This document shows, piece by piece, positions 12,431-23,505 of a DNA stretch of 64,000 nucleotides; position 1 is the first letter of the stretch; every line of letters begins with the position of its first letter. A program made the translations under genes and the position numbers. The notes under the pieces were generated by a model, which was given only the letters and a program-made list of their open reading frames with translations, ran no database searches and was not told the origin of the DNA. Source of the stretch: Lophium mytilinum. Taxonomy: Eukaryota. The DNA is taken from positions 266,959 to 330,958 of the forward strand of contig MU004204.1 of the NCBI GenBank assembly GCA_010093605.1, read 5' to 3'.

Positions 12431-15400
12431 ATGCTCCTCACTCGTGGTAGTCGGTCCCTGGAGCATGTCTGGGTAACCCGTGGCAGCCTCAAACACCAAC
12501 TCCGACCCTCGAGAAAGGCTCCCGCGGCCTTAGCCTCAGCCTCGCGCTCGTCCAGTTCCTCAGCCTTGAACACTGCTCGTCTCACCGCCACCGCGCCACT
12601 GCCCGCCCCTCAGACACGTCCTCGCCATCGCCAGGCTCCAACAGCTTTGCGACATAAGAGCCACTCGGTGACTGCCCTCCGTCCCTACACCATGACGCCC
12701 CCAGTCACTATGACGGAGCCTATCAATAATCGAACCGCCCAGCCTGAACGACTCACCGAGAACCTGGAGAGGCCGACCTTGGATGATCGGTCGTACAGAG
12801 TCATTAGGCTGGCGAACCACCTCGAGGCCCTGCTCATACATGACCCGGAAACGGATAAAGTCAGCGGTGCGTTGGATGTAAACGTTGGAAGTTTCAGCGA
12901 TGCGGAGGACATGCCGGGCATTGCCCACGCCGTAGAGCATCTATTATTCATGGGCACGGAGAAAGTGAGTTGACCTTGCGTCCCACACAAGTGAAGCGGT
13001 ACTGAAATTGAACGGTTGGAGCATCTGAGCTTTCGAGATGTCCTTCGGGTGGAAGCTTTGGCATATCTACAGTGTTCAAGACATGCTAACGTTACTACTT
13101 GTAGTATCCTAAGGAGAATGCATATAACCAATATCTTACCTCACACTCCGGGCACTCCAATGCGTACACTGCGGCCACCTCGACGAATTACTACTTTGAA
13201 GTAGGGGCATCCTCGAAAACCTCGACTAGTGACGCCACGTCTGCTTCTAGCCCTCAAGACCTGACGGCTTTGAAAGCAGAGTCACCATTGTATGGAGCTC
13301 TCGATCGGTTCGCACAGTTCTTTGTGGCCCCATTGTTCCTCGAAGAAACTCTGGATAGGGAGCTCAAGGCTGTCGACTCGGAGAACAAGAAGAATCTACA
13401 AAATGATACTTGGAGGTTACATCAGCTTAACAAATCCCTTTCAAATCCCGAACATCCTTACAACCACTTCTCGACAGGTAGTTACAAGACTTTGCACGAC
13501 GAACCGCTTGCACGCGGGGTGAAGATTCGGGATGAGTTCATGAAGTTTTACCATACACATTACTCGGCGAATCGAATGAAGTTGGTTGTTCTTGGCCGTG
13601 AGAGTTTGGATGATCTCGAAAGCTGGGTTGAGGAGCTGTTTTCTGCGGTACCTAACAAAAATCTCTCTCGACTACGATGGGATGATGTTGCTCCGTATAC
13701 GGAGAAAGAGTTGGGAATGCAAATATTTGCAAAGCCTGTCTTCGAGATGCGGAATTTGGAACTAGACTTTCTGTACCAAGATGAAGAGGAGCTTTACGAG
13801 TCTCAGCCAGGACGTTACTTCTCACATCTCATTGGCCATGAAGGTCCAGGTAGCATTCTAGCTTATATCAAAGCGAAGGGATGGGCCAATGGACTGTCAG
13901 CGGGAGCACAGCCTCTATGCCCGGGATCTGCAATCTTTGTTGTCAAGGTTAAACTTACTGAGGAGGGTCTGAAGCACTACAAGGAAGTTACGAAGACGAT
14001 ATTCCAATACATTGCAATGATGCGCGAATCGCCGCCCCAGGAATGGATCGTGGATGAGATGAAGCGCATGAGCGAGGTTGACTTCAAGTACAAACAAAAG
14101 AGTCCTGCAAGCAGAACCACAAGCTCGCTCAGTGGGATCATGCAGAGACCGTACCCTAGAGAACTTCTTTTAAGCGGACCCAGTCTTATTCGCAAGTTCA
14201 ATGCTGAAGCGATCAACAAGGCAGCTACGTACTTACGGCCGGACAACTTTCGGTTGACTCTGATCAGCCAAGACTTCCCAGGAGACTGGGACCAGAAAGA
14301 GAAGTGGTATGGAACCGAGTACAAGTATGAGAAGATACCAGAAGATTTCCTGGCCGAAATCAATAATGTGGTTGCGAGCCCGGCTAGCGATCGCCCGGCC
14401 GAGCTTCATCTACCGCACAAGAATGAATTCATCCCAAATCGCCTCGAGGTGGAGAAGAAAGAAGTTGAGGAGCCGCTGAAGACGCCGAAGCTTATCCGAA
14501 ACGATGAGAATGTCCGGACGTGGTTCAAGAAAGATGACCGTTTCTGGGTTCCTAAGGCCAGCGTGCTCATTACCTTACGATCGCCTCTCGTTAGCCTGAC
14601 GCCCCTCAATACAGTTGTGTCCCATCTCTACCGAGAACTGGTATACGATGCCTTGGTGGAGTACTCTTACGACGCTGAGATATCTGGTCTTAATTACTCG
14701 GTCGCTGCACACGCACCTGGCCTCGATGTCAGTGTCAGCGGCTACAACGATAAGATGGCGGTTCTTCTCGAGAAAGTTCTAATCTCAATGCGAGACTTGG
14801 AGGTTAGCGAAGACCGTTTCAACATAATCAAAGAAAGACTGGCACGTAGCTTCCGGAACTGGGAGTACCAGCAGCCGTACCATCAGGTCGGAGTCTTTAG
14901 CAGGTGGCTCACAACCGAGAAGGGCTGGATCAACGAGCAATTGCTTGCTGAGCTGCACAACGTCACTGCGGCTGACGTCCGCGCTTTCTTCCCTCAACTC
15001 CTCGCCCAGGTTCACATTGAATTGCTTGCACATGGAAACATTTACAAAGAGGATGCTCTAAAACTGACTGACATGGTCGAGTCAATCTTGAAGCCAAAAA
15101 TACTGCCATCTTCTCAATGGCCTATCCGACGCTCGCTACTTTTGCCGCCGGGGTGTAATTTCGTCTACGAGCGAAACCTCAGAGATCCGGCGAACGTCAA
15201 CCATTGCATCGAATACATGCTTTATATTGGCGATCCTCTGAACCGGCAACGGAAGGCGAAGCTCCTTCTCATGGCCCAGATGGCGGACGAGCCAGCATTT
15301 GACCAGCTACGAACGAAAGAACAGCTTGGCTACGTCGTTTTCAGCGGGCCGACGATATCGAATATGTGGGCTGGATACCGTATCTTGATCCAGAGCGAGA

Positions 15401-16206
15401 AGAGCCCCGAATACTTGGAGGGGCGAATAGACGCGTTTTTGACCCAGTTCGGACAGATGCTGCACGACATGAAGGATGAAGACTTTGAAGGGCATAAGAG
15501 GAGCATCATCAACAAGCGGCTAGAGAAGCTTAAGAATCTGTCACAGGAGACGAACAGGTTTTGGAATCACGTTCTGAGCGAATGCTACGATTTCGAGTCG
15601 GGTAAGTGCTCAGCAGCTTCGCCTATCTGATGCTGAAAATATGCTAATCTTTAAATAGCTGACCATGATGTGGAGCATCTCACACCTCTCACCAAACAAG
15701 ATGTCGTTGAGTTCTTCAATCAGTTCATCTCGCCGACGTCACCGACGCGTGCTAAATTGGCAGTCCACATGCTAGCCCAGTCATCGCCGGCTGCAGAACA
15801 GGACGAGCAAGTGGTCAAGCTCGTCAGCGAGCTGCTCACAGCCAATAAAGTGGCCGTCAAGGACGATGATCTCCAGAAACACTTCGAAGCAGTGGAGAAA
15901 CCCGCCAAGCAAGACGACCTAGTCGCAGCGCTATCCTCCTACCTTGGCGAGCTGAAGCTAGAGGCGGACGTTGTGACCAAGGTGGTGGAGCAGGGCAAGG
16001 CAGCGCTGGCGGCTGCCTTGACGGAGACAGAGAGCCAGAAGGAGGTGGTGGAGGCAGATGGTGAGACGCACGTGAAGCTAGGCAACGGAACCACACCAGT
16101 AGTGATCCACGATGTGCATGCGTGGAAGGCTGGGCTGGAGGTTAGCAAGGGTGCTCGACCAGTGCAGGATCTCAGCGATTTCGAGGAGATCGAGGCGAAG
16201 CTGTGA
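12431..16206 (+). CDS. STE23: Insulysin / a-factor processing metallopeptidase (M16A)
   Basis: Inverted zinc motif HAVEH, AVDSENKKN, HLIGHEGPGS, DQLRTKEQLGY. Introns about 12965-13104 and 15602-15658. Alternative start ATG at 12692. Ends AKL*. Confidence 0.95.
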
Positions 16207-17622
16207 GGGACGGGATGACGTTGGGCTCCAGTAGTTGGCTCTGGTGGCAGGCTGGGAGGACGAGTTGCATGTTTCTGATAGCGGTTGGATCAGCAGCTAG
16301 GCATCGGTGGCAAGTGCATGACACATGGTGTGAGGACTTGCAGATAGGGTTGCATGATTTGCATTGGGGCGCTTCGTGGAGCTGCTTGAGGACCTTGTAC
16401 AGGAAATGCAGGTGCCCGGCCATGCATACATAGTAAAACTAGAAACCCCAGCGAGGTGCATGCTGTTAAGAACGAACAGCATAGTTCATGTGGTGCTCGC
16501 CGGGTACGGTTTTGGTGCGTCAAGCGGCGCTGGGCCAAACACTGGCGGTTTGAAACAGCAGCGGGTGTGAGGCATGCGAAGAGTGTAGGAGAGCCCACGC
16601 GCGACTGGGCGGCATAGCGAAAGGAGATGCAGCAAGACAGTGCCTCTTAATGAAACTGCGGCATAGCCAGACATAAACAGCTGCACAACGGGTGGCTGTC
16701 GTGCGCTCTCGGCTTGTCCGGCCCCCTACATTCACCCAGACTGCAGAGTGCGTCGGACGGCAGCACTTAAATGGTGCAGCGCCCCGTCTGCACGCGAGGA
16801 AGCGCTCGGCTTGGCTGCTTGGTGGTGCCTTTCAACAGCCCAGTCATCACGTCGGGAGGGCGTTCGCAGAGTCGCGTCGAGGTGCGCGCAACCTTGCTAG
16901 AAGCGCAGGGAGCAGATGCGGGTGAAGGAGGGCTCCGCTCCGCCCAGCCAATTGCCCCCCGCGCCTAGCGGTGCATTGATCGAAAGGGCACACTGGCTGG
17001 GCGGGCCTGAGGCTGAGAGGCAGGCTGAGAAACCGGATTTGATTGTCTTTACGCCCTGTTTACCGTGTCTCGCGGTGATTTGCGTGCTGCGCTTTGGCTT
17101 CATCGACGCGCGAGCTGCACACTCAAATCGCCAACACCACACGAACGCGTTCACCACTCCCCTCCCTGTGCTCCCGACCCGTCTTAGTCGCGCCCATTGC
17201 AGCTTGCCCTACGCTTCTGCACCCCGTCTGCGCTGCAGAGCCTGCTTCCCGTCCCGAGGACTGCCACCCCGATATACCCTCATCACGCCCCTCTCGTCCC
17301 TCCTTTCTCTTCCTCAGGCTTGCTCTCCCCCAAGACCTCTGCTCTCTGTCCCTCTCCGCTTTGCTCACGTCTTGGACACCCTCACCAGCTTTGATACTCG
17401 CATCCTGTACTTTCCTCGACATTGAATTACTTCTGTTCGCGTCGCCACAGCCTATTTTATATCGCGTCCTTCAACAGCCTCGTACTCGACACCCGTCTTG
17501 CTTTTCTCCCAACACACCACCACCTCAATTGGCCGCTAGACTATCCAATCCTAGAAACCAGTCTTTGATAGACTTGCAATTACTCTCAGTCTTTCGTTTG
17601 GATTCAGTCTACCACCGCCATT

Positions 17623-19084
17623 ATGACTACTCACGTCCCCACGCGTCAGCCCTTCGCTGCTCTCGACAGCCCCAGGCTCCAATCGCTCTCCAACATCAAG
17701 AATCGCCAAAATGGTATGCTTGTCTACTACTCTGCTCTCACAAAAGACGCGTAATTCCATGTGTGCGTTTGTTAACACGATATCCATAGCTATCCCAGTA
17801 TCCTTTTCACCCTCCCAGAAGCCCACCCAATCAACAAGCACCAAACGCCGCTACAGCCCCTCCGTCTTCGATGCTGAGAATGATTCTGAGAACATCGATC
17901 CCTCCATCTTCAATTCACCCACCAAGCGCTCCAAAACCACCGATGGCCTCGCCAAACCCTCCCAGTTCATCACTACCACCCAATCTGCCCGCACCAGCCC
18001 CACCACATTGCCCTCCCCTCGCAAAATAATAACACCAACTCTACCGTCTGTCCGCAAAGCTATATCCTCACCATCCACTACATCCTCAACCCCAATTGGT
18101 TCTTCTCGCGGTTCCCCAAAGCACAAGCGTGTCGGCCTCCTTTCAAAGCGTCGTGCATCCTCCTCCCCATTTCGTCGCATCGACCCACCCGCTTTCTCGC
18201 CTTCAATGGCTAATGGCAACTCTGGTCTTCCTTTCTCAATCGACGCTGCCCTTAGCGGCACTATTCCCACCTACACTCCCAAGCCAGCAGTTACCGCCAT
18301 GCCCACTTTAGAGGAGGCTATGCCAAAGACCTGGTTCTTCGATATCCACGAAGACACCCCTGAAGAAGAGGCCACGAACCTGATGGAGCATTCCGCATGC
18401 ACACTGGACATCTCCTCGGACGACGACGGCGAAATGAGGAAAGCAAGGGAAGGTGCTGAAAGGGGCAAAGAAAACATCCCACCACCGGACTTCGTCTTCG
18501 CTTCCACCTCCACAGATGCAGGGGCCAACGTTGAGGATGCTGCTACCGAGATGACTGGGTTGGAGGGTGCGGGCGCTATCCATGAAGTCAAGCTACCTAA
18601 GCTTCGCCGTCCCCTTCTCCAAGATGCTATGGACCAGGATCGCTCGCCCCTTTCTGACTTGCCTGCTAAGGACTATTACGGGCCTGGGTGCGATGAGTCG
18701 TCGTTCGTGACGGTGGATGCTGCTATTGAGAAGCCGTCTGGTCTTTCCAAGGAGTTCGACTTTGCTGTCCCTACGTCGCCATCACCGCTTAGGGAGCAGG
18801 ATGTAGTTGGGGAGGAAAAGCCCGTCGAGGCTGAGGCCCCGGTTGAAGTCGAGGCTCCAGTTGAGGTTGAGGCTCCAGTTGTCGAGGCCTCAGCCGAGGC
18901 TCCACTTCCAGTCGAGACCGAGGTTGATGTGCCGCTACAAGTCGAGCAGGAGAAGGAGATCCCAATCTACATCGACGAGACCGCCGGACCTGCTGTGGAA
19001 GCTTCTGTCCCCGCTGAGGCCCAAACCTTAGAGGAAGTCGCTGTTCTCGTCTCACTACCTGATGAGACCGATGAGGAACTATAA
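17623..19084 (+). CDS. Disordered fungal protein with D-box, ABBA and KEN motifs (Acm1-like candidate)
   Basis: ATG at 17623 (MTTHVPTRQPFAAL); intron 17714-17789 joins it to the long ORF. Motifs FDIHED, KENIPP, RSPLSDL and several SPxK/R sites. Confidence 0.8.
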
Positions 19085-20400
19085 CAGCACTGCCACGTGT
19101 ACTCTTCGTCTCTCTTCATTGCTGTCGTCTGGTCTTATCTCCGCTAGAGACAATACGTCGTCCCAACCACCTCTTACTTTGCTCCCTTCCTGGTTTCCTT
19201 CTCAATGCTGTCTCTCTCTTGGCCTTTCCTACTTGGTTGTCCCCACCGGTAAACACCAGCCTTCCTTCATGTCACCATGAACAGGCGGTCCCTTTTCCGG
19301 GAAGGTGGGCCGAGACGGAACACGGTCATGACCACAACAACATTGAGACAGCGGACTGCGAAGCTGCAAAGATTGCCTGGGAGCTGAGACGACCACACCA
19401 TACCGCGATCACAAGAACCTCAAGTCCGAGATCTAGAACAACGAAACTCATACCTCTCTTACTTATACACTCTTTACAATGGGTAATGCACTGCTTTTTT
19501 GGCGTCTCGTCGGGGCGCTGGGGTCTATTCAGGCGTTTACCGGGCCTGAGTCCCCCCTTTCCTGTCATTTCCTTAATGTTGGCTTTCTGCTTGGCTGGTT
19601 TCTTGCGATTGCTTGTCCACTTTTCTTGCCCATCGACTACCCCCTTTCCCCGATTGTCTGTCTGGTATTTTTTGGCGTTGCTAGCTTTTGTGTTTTGTGT
19701 TTGATGTTGTTACGTTGGGAATGTGTTGGAGTATTGAGGTGGTGGGAGGCGGTTGGGTCGTATTGGTATTAAGAACGAAATACACGGATTGCACTTAACA
19801 GACCATGCTTTCATTATTACCCACCAATCATGCTAATCCCATATATCTCTAGATGCCAACCAATGCGCTTGGCATCGGTCGTGCGCTCTACGCTCGAGCC
19901 GGCTATACTTTTCCGCCTCATCGTGTCATCAACGGATAACGGCAACGGCCTGACTTCCCATTGAGTCCTCGTCTCTAAAAATTGCCTTTTATGGCGTGCT
20001 AACAACACGCTTAATTCATTGGCCAAGACTTGTAGTAGGGAGAAAACGAAAGCGCCAAGACGAATATCGGAGACTACTTACACCTGACCATGCAAAGCAG
20101 ATTACTTTTTGGGATCCTCACGACAACGACCTCTTAAAGCCGAGTCTGCTATGCTCCTCATCGCTTGCAAGATCCGGTGAAGTGGTTTGGATAAGATACC
20201 CCGCTGGTGTGTTAGGCTGGGGAGCGTTTGAGAGCTGCGGTAAGTGAGGACTTTATATCTGCGGATTCCCTCAGATTATGGAAGGGTGTCGATTTGTATC
20301 GCTTGTGTCCCTGACTCGATTGTGGTAGTAAGTCTTTTCAACCTTGCAGTCTTGATATCCATGTTCTTTGAAACTTTCATTACCTTCAAGAAATTGAGAT

Positions 20401-22419: not shown

Positions 22420-23505
22420 TCAGCTCGAAGGCACTTCATCCACCCACGGAATCGCAGACTGAGCGCCTACCTTTTGTACAGTCTCCGAGGCGGCTCGGTT
22501 TGCATACTCGATGGCGGCGTCGATATCAAAGGACGTTGCGCCACGAGCAACCGAGACAGCATACGCCCCTACGAAGGTGTCGCCAGCAGCAGTGGTGTCT
22601 ACTACTTTGACCTTTCGGGCCGGTAGAACTTTGGCTGGCTGAGACTTGGTATGGCGGGCAGCTGTTTGGTAGTATACCCCCTGAAATCTTTAGGATAGAG
22701 CTGTAAACAGTCGAGATGCAGACTTACCTCGGCGCCTAGAGTGATTATTACATTCTGAACGCCTCCGTTGATGAAGACGGAGGCTACATCGTTCCATGAT
22801 GTTGGGTTTTCGATTCCGGATAGAATAGAAGCTTCCGTCTCGTTCACGATCAAGTGATCAAGACCCTTGTAGGCGTCTTCCGGAAGAGGAATTGCGGGAG
22901 CTGGGTTCAGAATAACCACAATATTGCGTTCCCTTGCGGCTTTCATATTGAGAAGAACCTACCTTTTGTTAGGCATGTGTTGATAGACATGTCTGGGTTC
23001 ATTGTCCAGTTTTAAATGCACGAGAACCTACCACTTCGATAGGAACTTCCAACTGGAACAGGGCAACCGTGGTGTCAGGTTGGAGAAGGTCTACGACCGG
23101 CACATTATAGTTGGCTCCAGGGGACAGCAGAATCCTGTTCTCTCCAGTTTGACTTTCAACAAGAATGACAGCCACTCCAGTCTTCTGATTCGGCAACTTC
23201 TGCACTTTTGACGTTTCTACTCCGCCCGCTTGCAAACTCTTCAAGAAATCGTCCGCGAATTGGTCGTCACCCACAGCCCCAACCATGCGGACCTCTACAT
23301 CTGTGGACTCCCCTTTTCGGGCCTGTGACCGTGTTCGAGACACTCTTGCGCATGCTACTGCTTGGTTGGCACCCTTGCCGCCAAACCCCGTGTCGAATGA
23401 TTCCGCAGTTAGCGTCTCGCCGCCAGCAGGAATCCGGGCTGTCCGAGTGACGAGATCGACATTCAGAGAGCCAATTACTGAGATGACGTGGTGGCTGGAC
23501 GACAT
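22420..23505 (-). CDS. RBK1: Ribokinase (PfkB family)
   Basis: VIGSLNVDLV, GGKGANQAVA, GAVGDD, LNPAPA, IVNETEA and DTTAAGDTF. Two introns. Confidence 0.92.

What the first reader, a model, noticed from the sequence alone, without database searches (positions are those of the whole stretch)
17623..19084. Probable Acm1-like APC/C pseudosubstrate inhibitor in a filamentous ascomycete
Seen: a disordered protein with an N-terminal D-box-like RQPFAAL and full CDK sites (SPTK, SPFR, SPRK). It then has, in order, an ABBA motif FDIHED within WFFDIHEDTPEEEATNLMEH (18338), a KEN box KENIPP (18467) and a D-box RSPLSDL (18641), and a second ABBA-like IPIYID near the C-terminus. Known: budding-yeast Acm1 inhibits Cdh1 through an ABBA(A-motif)-KEN-D-box array, its A-motif being FxLYEETxEE-like (from memory), and it is usually described as budding-yeast-restricted. 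Inference: this is an unrecognised Acm1 orthologue or analogue. I see no kinase P-loop or other catalytic domain.
Basis: partly seen in the sequence, partly recalled or inferred. Interest (0 to 1): 0.75.

Follow-up and report, generated by a model that had tools for sequence, protein, structure and literature searches.

The report
Mould cell-cycle brake resembling yeast Acm1
A widespread mould protein that databases often mislabel as a thymidylate kinase carries the same three docking signals, in the same order, that budding-yeast Acm1 uses to block the cell's protein-destruction machine, so moulds probably have a brake of this kind that was thought to be missing.

Summary
Observation confirmed. 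The gene is two exons (17623-17713, 17790-19084; splice seen in two runs) encoding a 461-aa, largely disordered protein. ABBA, KEN and D-box lie at the stated places; 3 of 200,000 shuffles give them in that order. Of 368 relatives from several Pezizomycotina classes, 320 keep the ordered triad. In a diverse 113-sequence alignment all six invariant columns are degron residues. The ABBA is of the fungal-Cdh1 type, and the Cdh1 pocket is largely kept. The family has no Pfam match, is single-copy here, is not MadBub, and its frequent 'thymidylate kinase' label is wrong. Aspergillus species have it, although a 2018 paper states that Acm1 has no obvious homolog in A. nidulans. Best reading: a Cdh1 pseudosubstrate inhibitor working like Acm1 (0.72). 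Orthology is not shown: five searches found no link to the Acm1 chain in the PDB, and Acm1's S102-P site and NEN are absent (about 0.55).

The parts
17122..19798 (+). span of a spliced contig over the gene (about 500 nt before the ATG); contig ends do not define transcript ends
   Evidence: run X1 record 2; RNA status of the run is a guess
17623..17713 (+). coding exon 1 (30 codons + 1 nt)
   Evidence: matches N-terminus of P0002
17714..17789 (+). 76-nt GT..AG intron
   Evidence: joint in 2 of 2 runs; donor GTATGC, acceptor CCATAG
17790..19084 (+). coding exon 2 to TAA; whole protein 461 aa
17644..17664 (+). N-terminal RxPF D-box-like motif (possible counterpart of Acm1 DB1)
   Evidence: 185 of 241 near-full-length relatives; RxxF is an 'inconclusive' D box in PMC5179498 supplement
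17885..17902 (+). xEN[IV]DP, a KEN-like motif lacking K
   Evidence: 283 of 365 relatives
17915..18175 (+). cluster of CDK consensus sites (SPTK, SPRK, SPFR) and basic SPKHKR patch (NLS-like, inferred)
   Evidence: mean 2.5 full sites before the ABBA vs 0.3 after it, n=311
18176..18253 (+). conserved RIDPP and PFSIDAAL blocks, partner unknown
   Evidence: conservation 0.83 and 0.84; EH1 consensus met in 0 of 320
18338..18355 (+). ABBA / A motif FDIHED (aa 214-219), preceded by W at -2
   Evidence: consensus in 363 of 368; W in 363 of 365
18359..18394 (+). predicted helix directly after the ABBA motif (aa 221-232)
   Evidence: AlphaFold2 model of the 91% identical P0002, pLDDT 86-90 there
18401..18427 (+). 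TLDISSDDD, hydrophobic-acidic block resembling a phospho-SIM (resemblance recalled, not tested)
   Evidence: pattern in 314 of 320; conservation 0.89
18467..18484 (+). KEN box KENIPP (aa 257-262)
   Evidence: KEN in 367 of 368; second P in 364 of 365
18641..18688 (+). D-box RSPLSDL (aa 315-321) with a conserved extension (acidic, two aromatics, G) to aa 330
   Evidence: strict pattern in 326 of 368; position counts; pLDDT 86-90
18959..18976 (+). C-terminal ABBA-like motif IPIYID (family mode I/FxIWxS)
   Evidence: loose pattern in 134 of 228, strict in 7 of 228; variants

Best explanation
A disordered pseudosubstrate inhibitor of the APC/C coactivator Cdh1 (CdhA), conserved as one family across filamentous ascomycetes. 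Shown: gene structure, motif array, its conservation. Inferred by analogy with Acm1: the ABBA motif and following helix dock between blades 2 and 3 of the Cdh1 WD40 propeller, the KEN box on its top face, the D-box between blades 1 and 7, so that one chain fills all three degron sites and keeps cyclins off Cdh1 from G1/S to late mitosis. The conserved residues after the D-box may hinder Apc10. CDK sites and a basic patch in the N-terminal half would set stability and localisation, and the N-terminal RxPF box would time its own destruction. Whether it descends from the same gene as Acm1 is a separate question (about 0.55).
For: Six of six invariant columns in 113 diverse sequences (mean column identity 17%) are degron residues: F214, K257, E258, N259, P262, L318; R315 in 112 of 113. 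Variable positions follow the published degron preferences: ABBA P3 I/V/L, P4 H/Y, P6 D/E; D-box P3 P/A, P5 mostly G, P6 D/E, P7 L/M; P after KEN. Order and ABBA-KEN distance are as in Acm1: 38-47 aa in 320 proteins against 37 (F61 to K98), while the KEN-D linker is free (24-75 aa). AlphaFold2 gives no globular fold (pTM 0.23) but a confident helix right after the ABBA, as in Acm1 residues 61-80. Fungal Cdh1 reads phi-x-phi-phi-x-D/E and fungal Cdc20 K-x-x-phi-phi-x-D/E; 0 of 320 family members have K/R at P-1, whereas this genome's MadBub has two K-type motifs. In 118 Cdh1 relatives I311 is kept in 115, R338 and H355 in 118, P374 in 113; this genome's Cdc20 has S, R, H, A there. T at ABBA P7 (313 of 365) is shared with Acm1 alone among the 9 printed ABBA instances. 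An unprompted weak Pfam match to the cyclin-A APC/C-binding region appears in 6 of 113 members (best E 0.018).
Against: No binding or activity data. No sequence link to the Acm1 chain in the PDB at E<=10 in five searches. Acm1's S102-P after KEN is present in 0 of 320, NEN in 1 of 320, a full CDK site near the T161 position in 62 of 311. Cdh1 K333, which pairs with Acm1 E65, is K/R in only 77 of 118 and S in this genome; I344 is T. Lysines are not excluded from the core: only 30 of 320 have none between KEN and the D-box extension, though density is lower than in the N-terminal part (4.3% vs 7.5%). In A. nidulans PucA alone is needed to switch off CdhA at G1/S, and the authors see no redundant pathway, so this protein is not sufficient there. 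Several equally conserved blocks (RIDPP, PFSIDAAL, LDISSD) are not explained by the Acm1 model. Five full-length relatives have M at D-box P4.
Confidence: 0.72

Rival explanations
1. A very high-affinity APC/C substrate, not an inhibitor: the three degrons only time its destruction (as ABBA does for cyclin A or Clb5), and its real job lies in the conserved N-terminal blocks (SPKxKR, RIDPP, PFSIDAAL), for example as a nuclear adaptor or repressor.
For: Those blocks are as conserved as the degrons (0.76-0.84). Lysines remain near the degrons. ABBA also serves substrates.
Against: All three motifs in Acm1 order with fixed ABBA-KEN spacing and a conserved D-box extension are the Acm1 design. RIDPP is lost in the four Aspergillus proteins read while the triad is intact. 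EH1 consensus is met in 0 of 320; no Pfam family.
Confidence: 0.17
2. A pseudosubstrate inhibitor aimed at Cdc20 or a meiotic coactivator, like S. pombe Mes1, rather than at Cdh1 in mitosis.
For: KEN and D-box bind all coactivators; Mes1 inhibits both Slp1 and Fzr1. The genome has Cdc20 (L001) and a third, divergent coactivator-like gene (L003). K333 is lost in this Cdh1.
Against: The ABBA is of the fungal-Cdh1 type and lacks the -1 lysine. This Cdc20 has S311, E325, E333, E344, A374 at the A-motif contacts.
Confidence: 0.07
3. The filamentous-fungal securin, or a detached MadBub degron cassette.
For: Securins are disordered, fast-evolving KEN/D-box proteins (own knowledge). The securin Pfam model found nothing anywhere in this genome, so the securin gene is unaccounted for.
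Against: MadBub is a separate gene on contig C9 with TPR, KEN, ABBA-KEN-ABBA and kinase-like motifs. No TPR or securin Pfam match here. The degrons sit in the C-terminal half and the tail behind them is unconserved (0.16), leaving no conserved separase-binding segment.
Confidence: 0.03
4. A thymidylate kinase, as about 37 of the 120 listed relatives are named (counted by eye).
For: Only the database names.
Against: No PF02223 match. No P-loop pattern in 262 proteins; 5 of 106 pattern hits in the second set, 4 of them on the conserved SP site. Disordered model. The real thymidylate kinase gene is on contig C7.
Confidence: 0.005

Closest known systems
S. cerevisiae Acm1 (APC/C-Cdh1 modulator 1; PDB 4BH6; PMC3690534)
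   Same: Disordered; A/ABBA motif, helix, KEN, D-box in that order; ABBA-KEN 38-47 vs 37 aa; D-box P3/P6/P7 match; T-x-E flank after ABBA; extra N-terminal D-box-like motif; CDK sites.
   Different: About twice as long; KEN-D linker median 47 vs 21 aa; no S-P after KEN, no NEN, no conserved T161-like site; invariant W at ABBA -2 and an LDISSD block; extra N-terminal blocks; no detectable profile match.
S. pombe Mes1 (PMC3084671)
   Same: Small pseudosubstrate inhibitor using KEN and D-box.
   Different: Meiosis-specific, binds Slp1 and Fzr1; no ABBA is mentioned in the passages read; homology not tested.
BubR1/Mad3 ABBA-KEN-ABBA cassette (PMC5179498)
   Same: Multivalent blocking of coactivator degron sites by ABBA, KEN and D-box.
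   Different: Needs TPR, Mad2 and Bub3 and targets Cdc20; fungal copies use K-type ABBA motifs; a separate MadBub gene exists in this genome.
Emi1/Rca1
   Same: Interphase inhibitor of APC/C-Cdh1 with a D-box.
   Different: Metazoan, with a zinc-binding region; this protein has two cysteines and no such domain.

Membership tests
Acm1 | A/ABBA motif Fx[ILV][FHY]x[DE] N-terminal to the KEN box | tested here: met
   363 of 368 relatives; consensus
Acm1 | Helix directly after the A motif | tested here: met
   predicted only: helix 221-232, pLDDT 86-90; Acm1 helix
Acm1 | KEN box about 37 aa after the A motif, then an inhibitory D-box (DB3) | tested here: met
   ordered triad in 320 of 368; 38-47 aa and 24-75 aa
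Acm1 | N-terminal Cdc20-specific D-box (DB1, RxxL) | tested here: inconclusive
   RxP[FL]xx[LIVM] in 185 of 241, mostly with F at P4
Acm1 | Detectable sequence homology to S. cerevisiae Acm1 | tested here: not met
   no hit at E<=10; 4bh6 chain A is in the library but I never saw the Acm1 chain listed, so there is no positive control; no intermediate yeasts were reached
Acm1 | S102-P CDK site after KEN; NEN before KEN | tested here: not met
   0 of 320 and 1 of 320; NEN is dispensable for inhibition
Acm1 | pT161 14-3-3 site about 42 aa after the D-box | tested here: inconclusive
   [ST]P at +30 to +55 in 135 of 311, full site in 62 of 311; SPLR is present here; no background computed
Acm1 | Inhibitory D-box extension acting on Apc10 | not testable with these tools
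   a conserved extension exists; the defining paper was not held, known only through
Acm1 | Binds and inhibits Cdh1, not Cdc20 | not testable with these tools
   complex prediction unavailable; only indirect motif and pocket evidence
Acm1 | G1/S expression and loss in late mitosis | tested here: inconclusive
   MCB-like words 7 vs 2.4 expected in 1 kb before the ATG (9 of 1000 shuffles), but 4 vs 2.1 (168 of 1000) upstream of the contig start, and the thymidylate-kinase control was flat
Thymidylate kinase (PF02223) | P-loop NMP kinase domain | tested here: not met
   true gene elsewhere
Mad3/BubR1/Bub1 | N-terminal TPR domain (PF08311) with KEN1 and ABBA-KEN-ABBA | tested here: not met
   only match in the genome is on C9
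Securin | PF04856 match / separase-binding segment | tested here: inconclusive
   no match here, but none anywhere in the genome or controls
Mes1 | Homology to Mes1 and meiosis-specific expression | not tested

The most novel reading that the evidence does not exclude
The family is more than a long Acm1. Besides the central ABBA-KEN-D triad it keeps a second, degenerate set (N-terminal RxPF box, xENxDP, C-terminal ABBA-like motif) and a near-invariant SIM-like LDISSD block between ABBA and KEN. It could therefore bridge two coactivators, as BubR1 does but without TPR or Mad2, or be gated by SUMO and CK2: an ancestral ascomycete APC/C inhibitor of which budding-yeast Acm1 is a trimmed form.
Probability: 0.12. 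Interest if true: 0.85.

Novelty: new variant of a known kind. Interest (0 to 1): 0.66.

Why it matters
Print places Acm1 in Saccharomycetales only (PMC5179498) and says no Cdh1 inhibitor has an obvious homolog in A. nidulans (PMC6078057). This family supplies a single, testable candidate in moulds, including Aspergillus, Fusarium and Pyricularia species. It would add a missing layer to models of G1/S and mitotic-exit control in hyphae, and make the origin of Acm1-type inhibitors (ancient gene versus repeated invention from short motifs) directly testable. It also exposes a propagated 'thymidylate kinase' mislabel.

Tried and rejected
Sequence link to Acm1: phmmer with the core and with P0371, hmmsearch with profiles A1, A2, A4 gave only chance hits (a complex-I subunit, ubiquitin variants, E 0.3-1.8). 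Foldseek with the low-confidence model: nothing at E<=0.001. ESM Atlas: only unnamed Ascomycota clusters. Pfam: no family for the protein; ZapC_C in 5 of 113 and seven single hits treated as noise. Complex prediction with a Cdh1 WD40 domain was not available, so there is no verdict. No run is on record as RNA; the splice joint is the only expression hint. Promoter: ACGCGT is not enriched in the window (9 vs 10.0); the CGCG peak upstream is mostly explained by GC content (11 vs 7.75, 126 of 1000); eight regions and two patterns were tried, so the one low value is post hoc. EH1 reading of PFSIDAAL rejected (0 of 320). Ubiquitin mimicry of the LDISSD-KENIPP stretch rejected as chance (E>=1.4). 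Range outside Pezizomycotina could not be judged: only the best 120, 150 and 120 of 772, 606 and 415 hits were shown. Three key papers were not held.

Full report
Gene. The ATG at 17623 opens a 91-nt exon; a 76-nt GT..AG intron (17714-17789) leads into a frame ending at 19084, giving 461 aa. Contigs of 2 of 2 public runs skip exactly these 76 nt (the runs' RNA status is a guess). The nearest named protein is from Mytilinidion resinicola, 464 aa, 91% identical, with the same N-terminus. The gene is single-copy in this genome (second hit E 0.28). It lies downstream of an M16 peptidase gene, with a PfkB kinase gene further on; nothing ties these to it.

Observation. In 200,000 shuffles the ABBA, KEN and D-box patterns came in this order 3 times. 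There is no Pfam family at E<=1 and no P-loop. AlphaFold2 on a 113-sequence alignment headed by the M. resinicola protein gives no fold (pTM 0.23, 218 of 464 residues under pLDDT 50) but confident islands at the ABBA-helix and the D-box.

Family. Searches found 772, 606 (50% clusters) and 415 relatives, of which 120, 150 and 120 were listed; pooled, 368 distinct proteins, not independent of each other. Named rows include Dothideomycetes, lichen fungi, Leotiomycetes (Oidiodendron, Bisporella), Sordariomycetes (Fusarium, Pyricularia, Metarhizium, Colletotrichum) and Eurotiomycetes (Onygenales, Exophiala, ten Aspergillus rows including A. undulatus, A. stella-maris and A. flavus) (class names from my own knowledge). 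I did not see the A. nidulans protein itself. ABBA is present in 363, KEN in 367, the strict D-box pattern in 326 and the ordered triad in 320 of 368. Most of the 48 misses are one-residue D-box variants or fragments; five have M at P4. For alignment A2 I picked 113 of the 262 proteins then in hand, by eye, for length and diversity. Its six invariant columns are F214, K257, E258, N259, P262 and L318. The KEN-D linker and the tail are unconserved (0.17, 0.16).

The variation is degron-like. He et al. (PMC3690534) give A/P/S at D-box P3, G at P5, D/E at P6, V/I/L at P7 and P after KEN. In A2 P3 is P/A in 111, P5 G in 71, P6 D/E in 94 and P7 L/M/I/V in 113 of 113. ABBA P4 is H/Y in 110 of 113, within Fx[ILV][FHY]x[DE]. 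Against the KEN consensus, P-1 is G in 318 of 365 rather than D/N.

Which coactivator. The supplement of PMC5179498 says fungal Cdh1 reads phi-x-phi-phi-x-D/E and fungal Cdc20 K-x-x-phi-phi-x-D/E. No family member has K/R at P-1 (0 of 320), whereas this genome's MadBub carries two K-type motifs around its second KEN, an internal control. The genome has Cdc20, Cdh1 and a third coactivator-like gene. Mapping S. cerevisiae numbering through, 118 Cdh1 relatives (120 listed, two animal proteins dropped) keep I311 (115), R338 (118), H355 (118) and P374 (113). K333 is K/R in 77 and S in this genome, L325 varies and I344 is mostly T. This Cdc20 differs at five of the five He et al. specificity positions. 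So Cdh1 is the likelier target, with one contact weakened.

Mechanism, inferred. As in the Acm1-Cdh1 structure, one chain would occupy the three degron sites and exclude substrates. A conserved stretch after the D-box (P11-P16) could act as the D-box extension described for Acm1 (known to me only through). Full CDK sites cluster before the ABBA (mean 2.5 vs 0.3), and 136 of 320 D-boxes contain [ST]P. In yeast, ACM1 is switched on at S phase and stabilised by CDK; if this holds in moulds, loss of PucA would also remove this protein, which reconciles it with the finding that PucA is essential for CdhA inactivation. That step is my inference.

Membership. Works like Acm1: likely. Is an Acm1: unproven. 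For: motif set, order, spacing, helix, the T-x-E flank (Acm1 alone has T at P7 among nine printed ABBA motifs, but cyclin A2 and BubR1-272 match three of five flank positions against Acm1's four, by inspection), one copy per genome here. Against: no profile hit to Acm1 in five PDB searches, without a positive control; S102-P and NEN absent; T161 equivalent not conserved; extra modules. Short motifs can arise afresh (PMC4654906), so convergence is possible. I put orthology at about 0.55 and file it as a variant, not a member.

Rivals. Substrate with another job (0.17), Cdc20- or meiosis-directed inhibitor (0.07), securin or MadBub piece (0.03), thymidylate kinase (0.005); see the fields above.

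Novelty in print. Eight searches (Acm1 with pseudosubstrate/Cdh1, Pezizomycotina, ABBA/fungi, filamentous, Mes1/evolution, cyclin A/Mad3, Candida albicans; CdhA with inhibitor/KEN) listed no paper that, by title, abstract start or the passages read, describes such a protein in moulds. The library lacks most subscription papers, including Burton 2011 and Qin 2019 and possibly alignments in supplements I did not see. What I read: PMC3690534 passages, section 7 and part 2 of section 5; PMC6078057 passages; PMC4114781 passages and introduction; PMC5717348, PMC12401543, PMC4654906, PMC3084671 passages; PMC5179498 passages, supplement search and part 2 of supplement 1; all others as search listings only.

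Verdict. A real, strongly conserved, mis-annotated family with the full Acm1 degron array; probably the missing Cdh1 inhibitor of filamentous ascomycetes. The kind of mechanism is known, the family and its range are not recognised in what I could search, and no binding has been shown. Interest 0.66.

Noticed in passing
window 18401-18427: LDISSD[DE] block between ABBA and KEN is as conserved as the degrons (314 of 320) and resembles a phospho-SUMO-interacting motif (resemblance recalled).
   Followed up: partly
window 18176-18253: RIDPP and PFSIDAALSG blocks are highly conserved with no known partner; RIDPP is absent from the four Aspergillus proteins read.
   Followed up: partly
P0453, P0464, P0487, P0491 (Aspergillus): A canonical-looking RxPLx[DE] D-box sits just before the xENIDP motif, making a second D-box/KEN-like pair in the N-terminal part.
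   Followed up: no
window 16500-17500: GC-rich upstream region with the window's highest CGCG count and several MCB-like words; only marginal after controlling for composition.
   Followed up: yes
L004:961-1806 (G000 C2): Cdh1 has a roughly 35-residue Ala/Ser/Pro-rich insertion inside the WD40 domain relative to yeast and human Cdh1, also seen in three other Cdh1 proteins read.
   Followed up: no
L003:1432-2814 (G000 C6): Third, divergent Cdc20/Fizzy-family gene, possibly the meiotic coactivator.
   Followed up: no
L001:1405-3237: Cdc20 appears intronless (one 610-aa open frame).
   Followed up: no
G000 whole genome: The securin Pfam model finds nothing, so the securin of this fungus is unidentified.
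   Followed up: no
P0378: A family member from Chaenotheca gracillima is named 'RNA helicase', a second mislabel.
   Followed up: no
window 19235-19272 and 19434-19636: A 38-nt stretch of the 3' region matches another contig of run X1, and parts of the long 3' region are conserved in the related organism of run X2.
   Followed up: no
window 12431-16206 and 22602-23505: Neighbours: an M16 (insulysin-type) peptidase gene on + and a PfkB carbohydrate kinase gene on -.
   Followed up: partly
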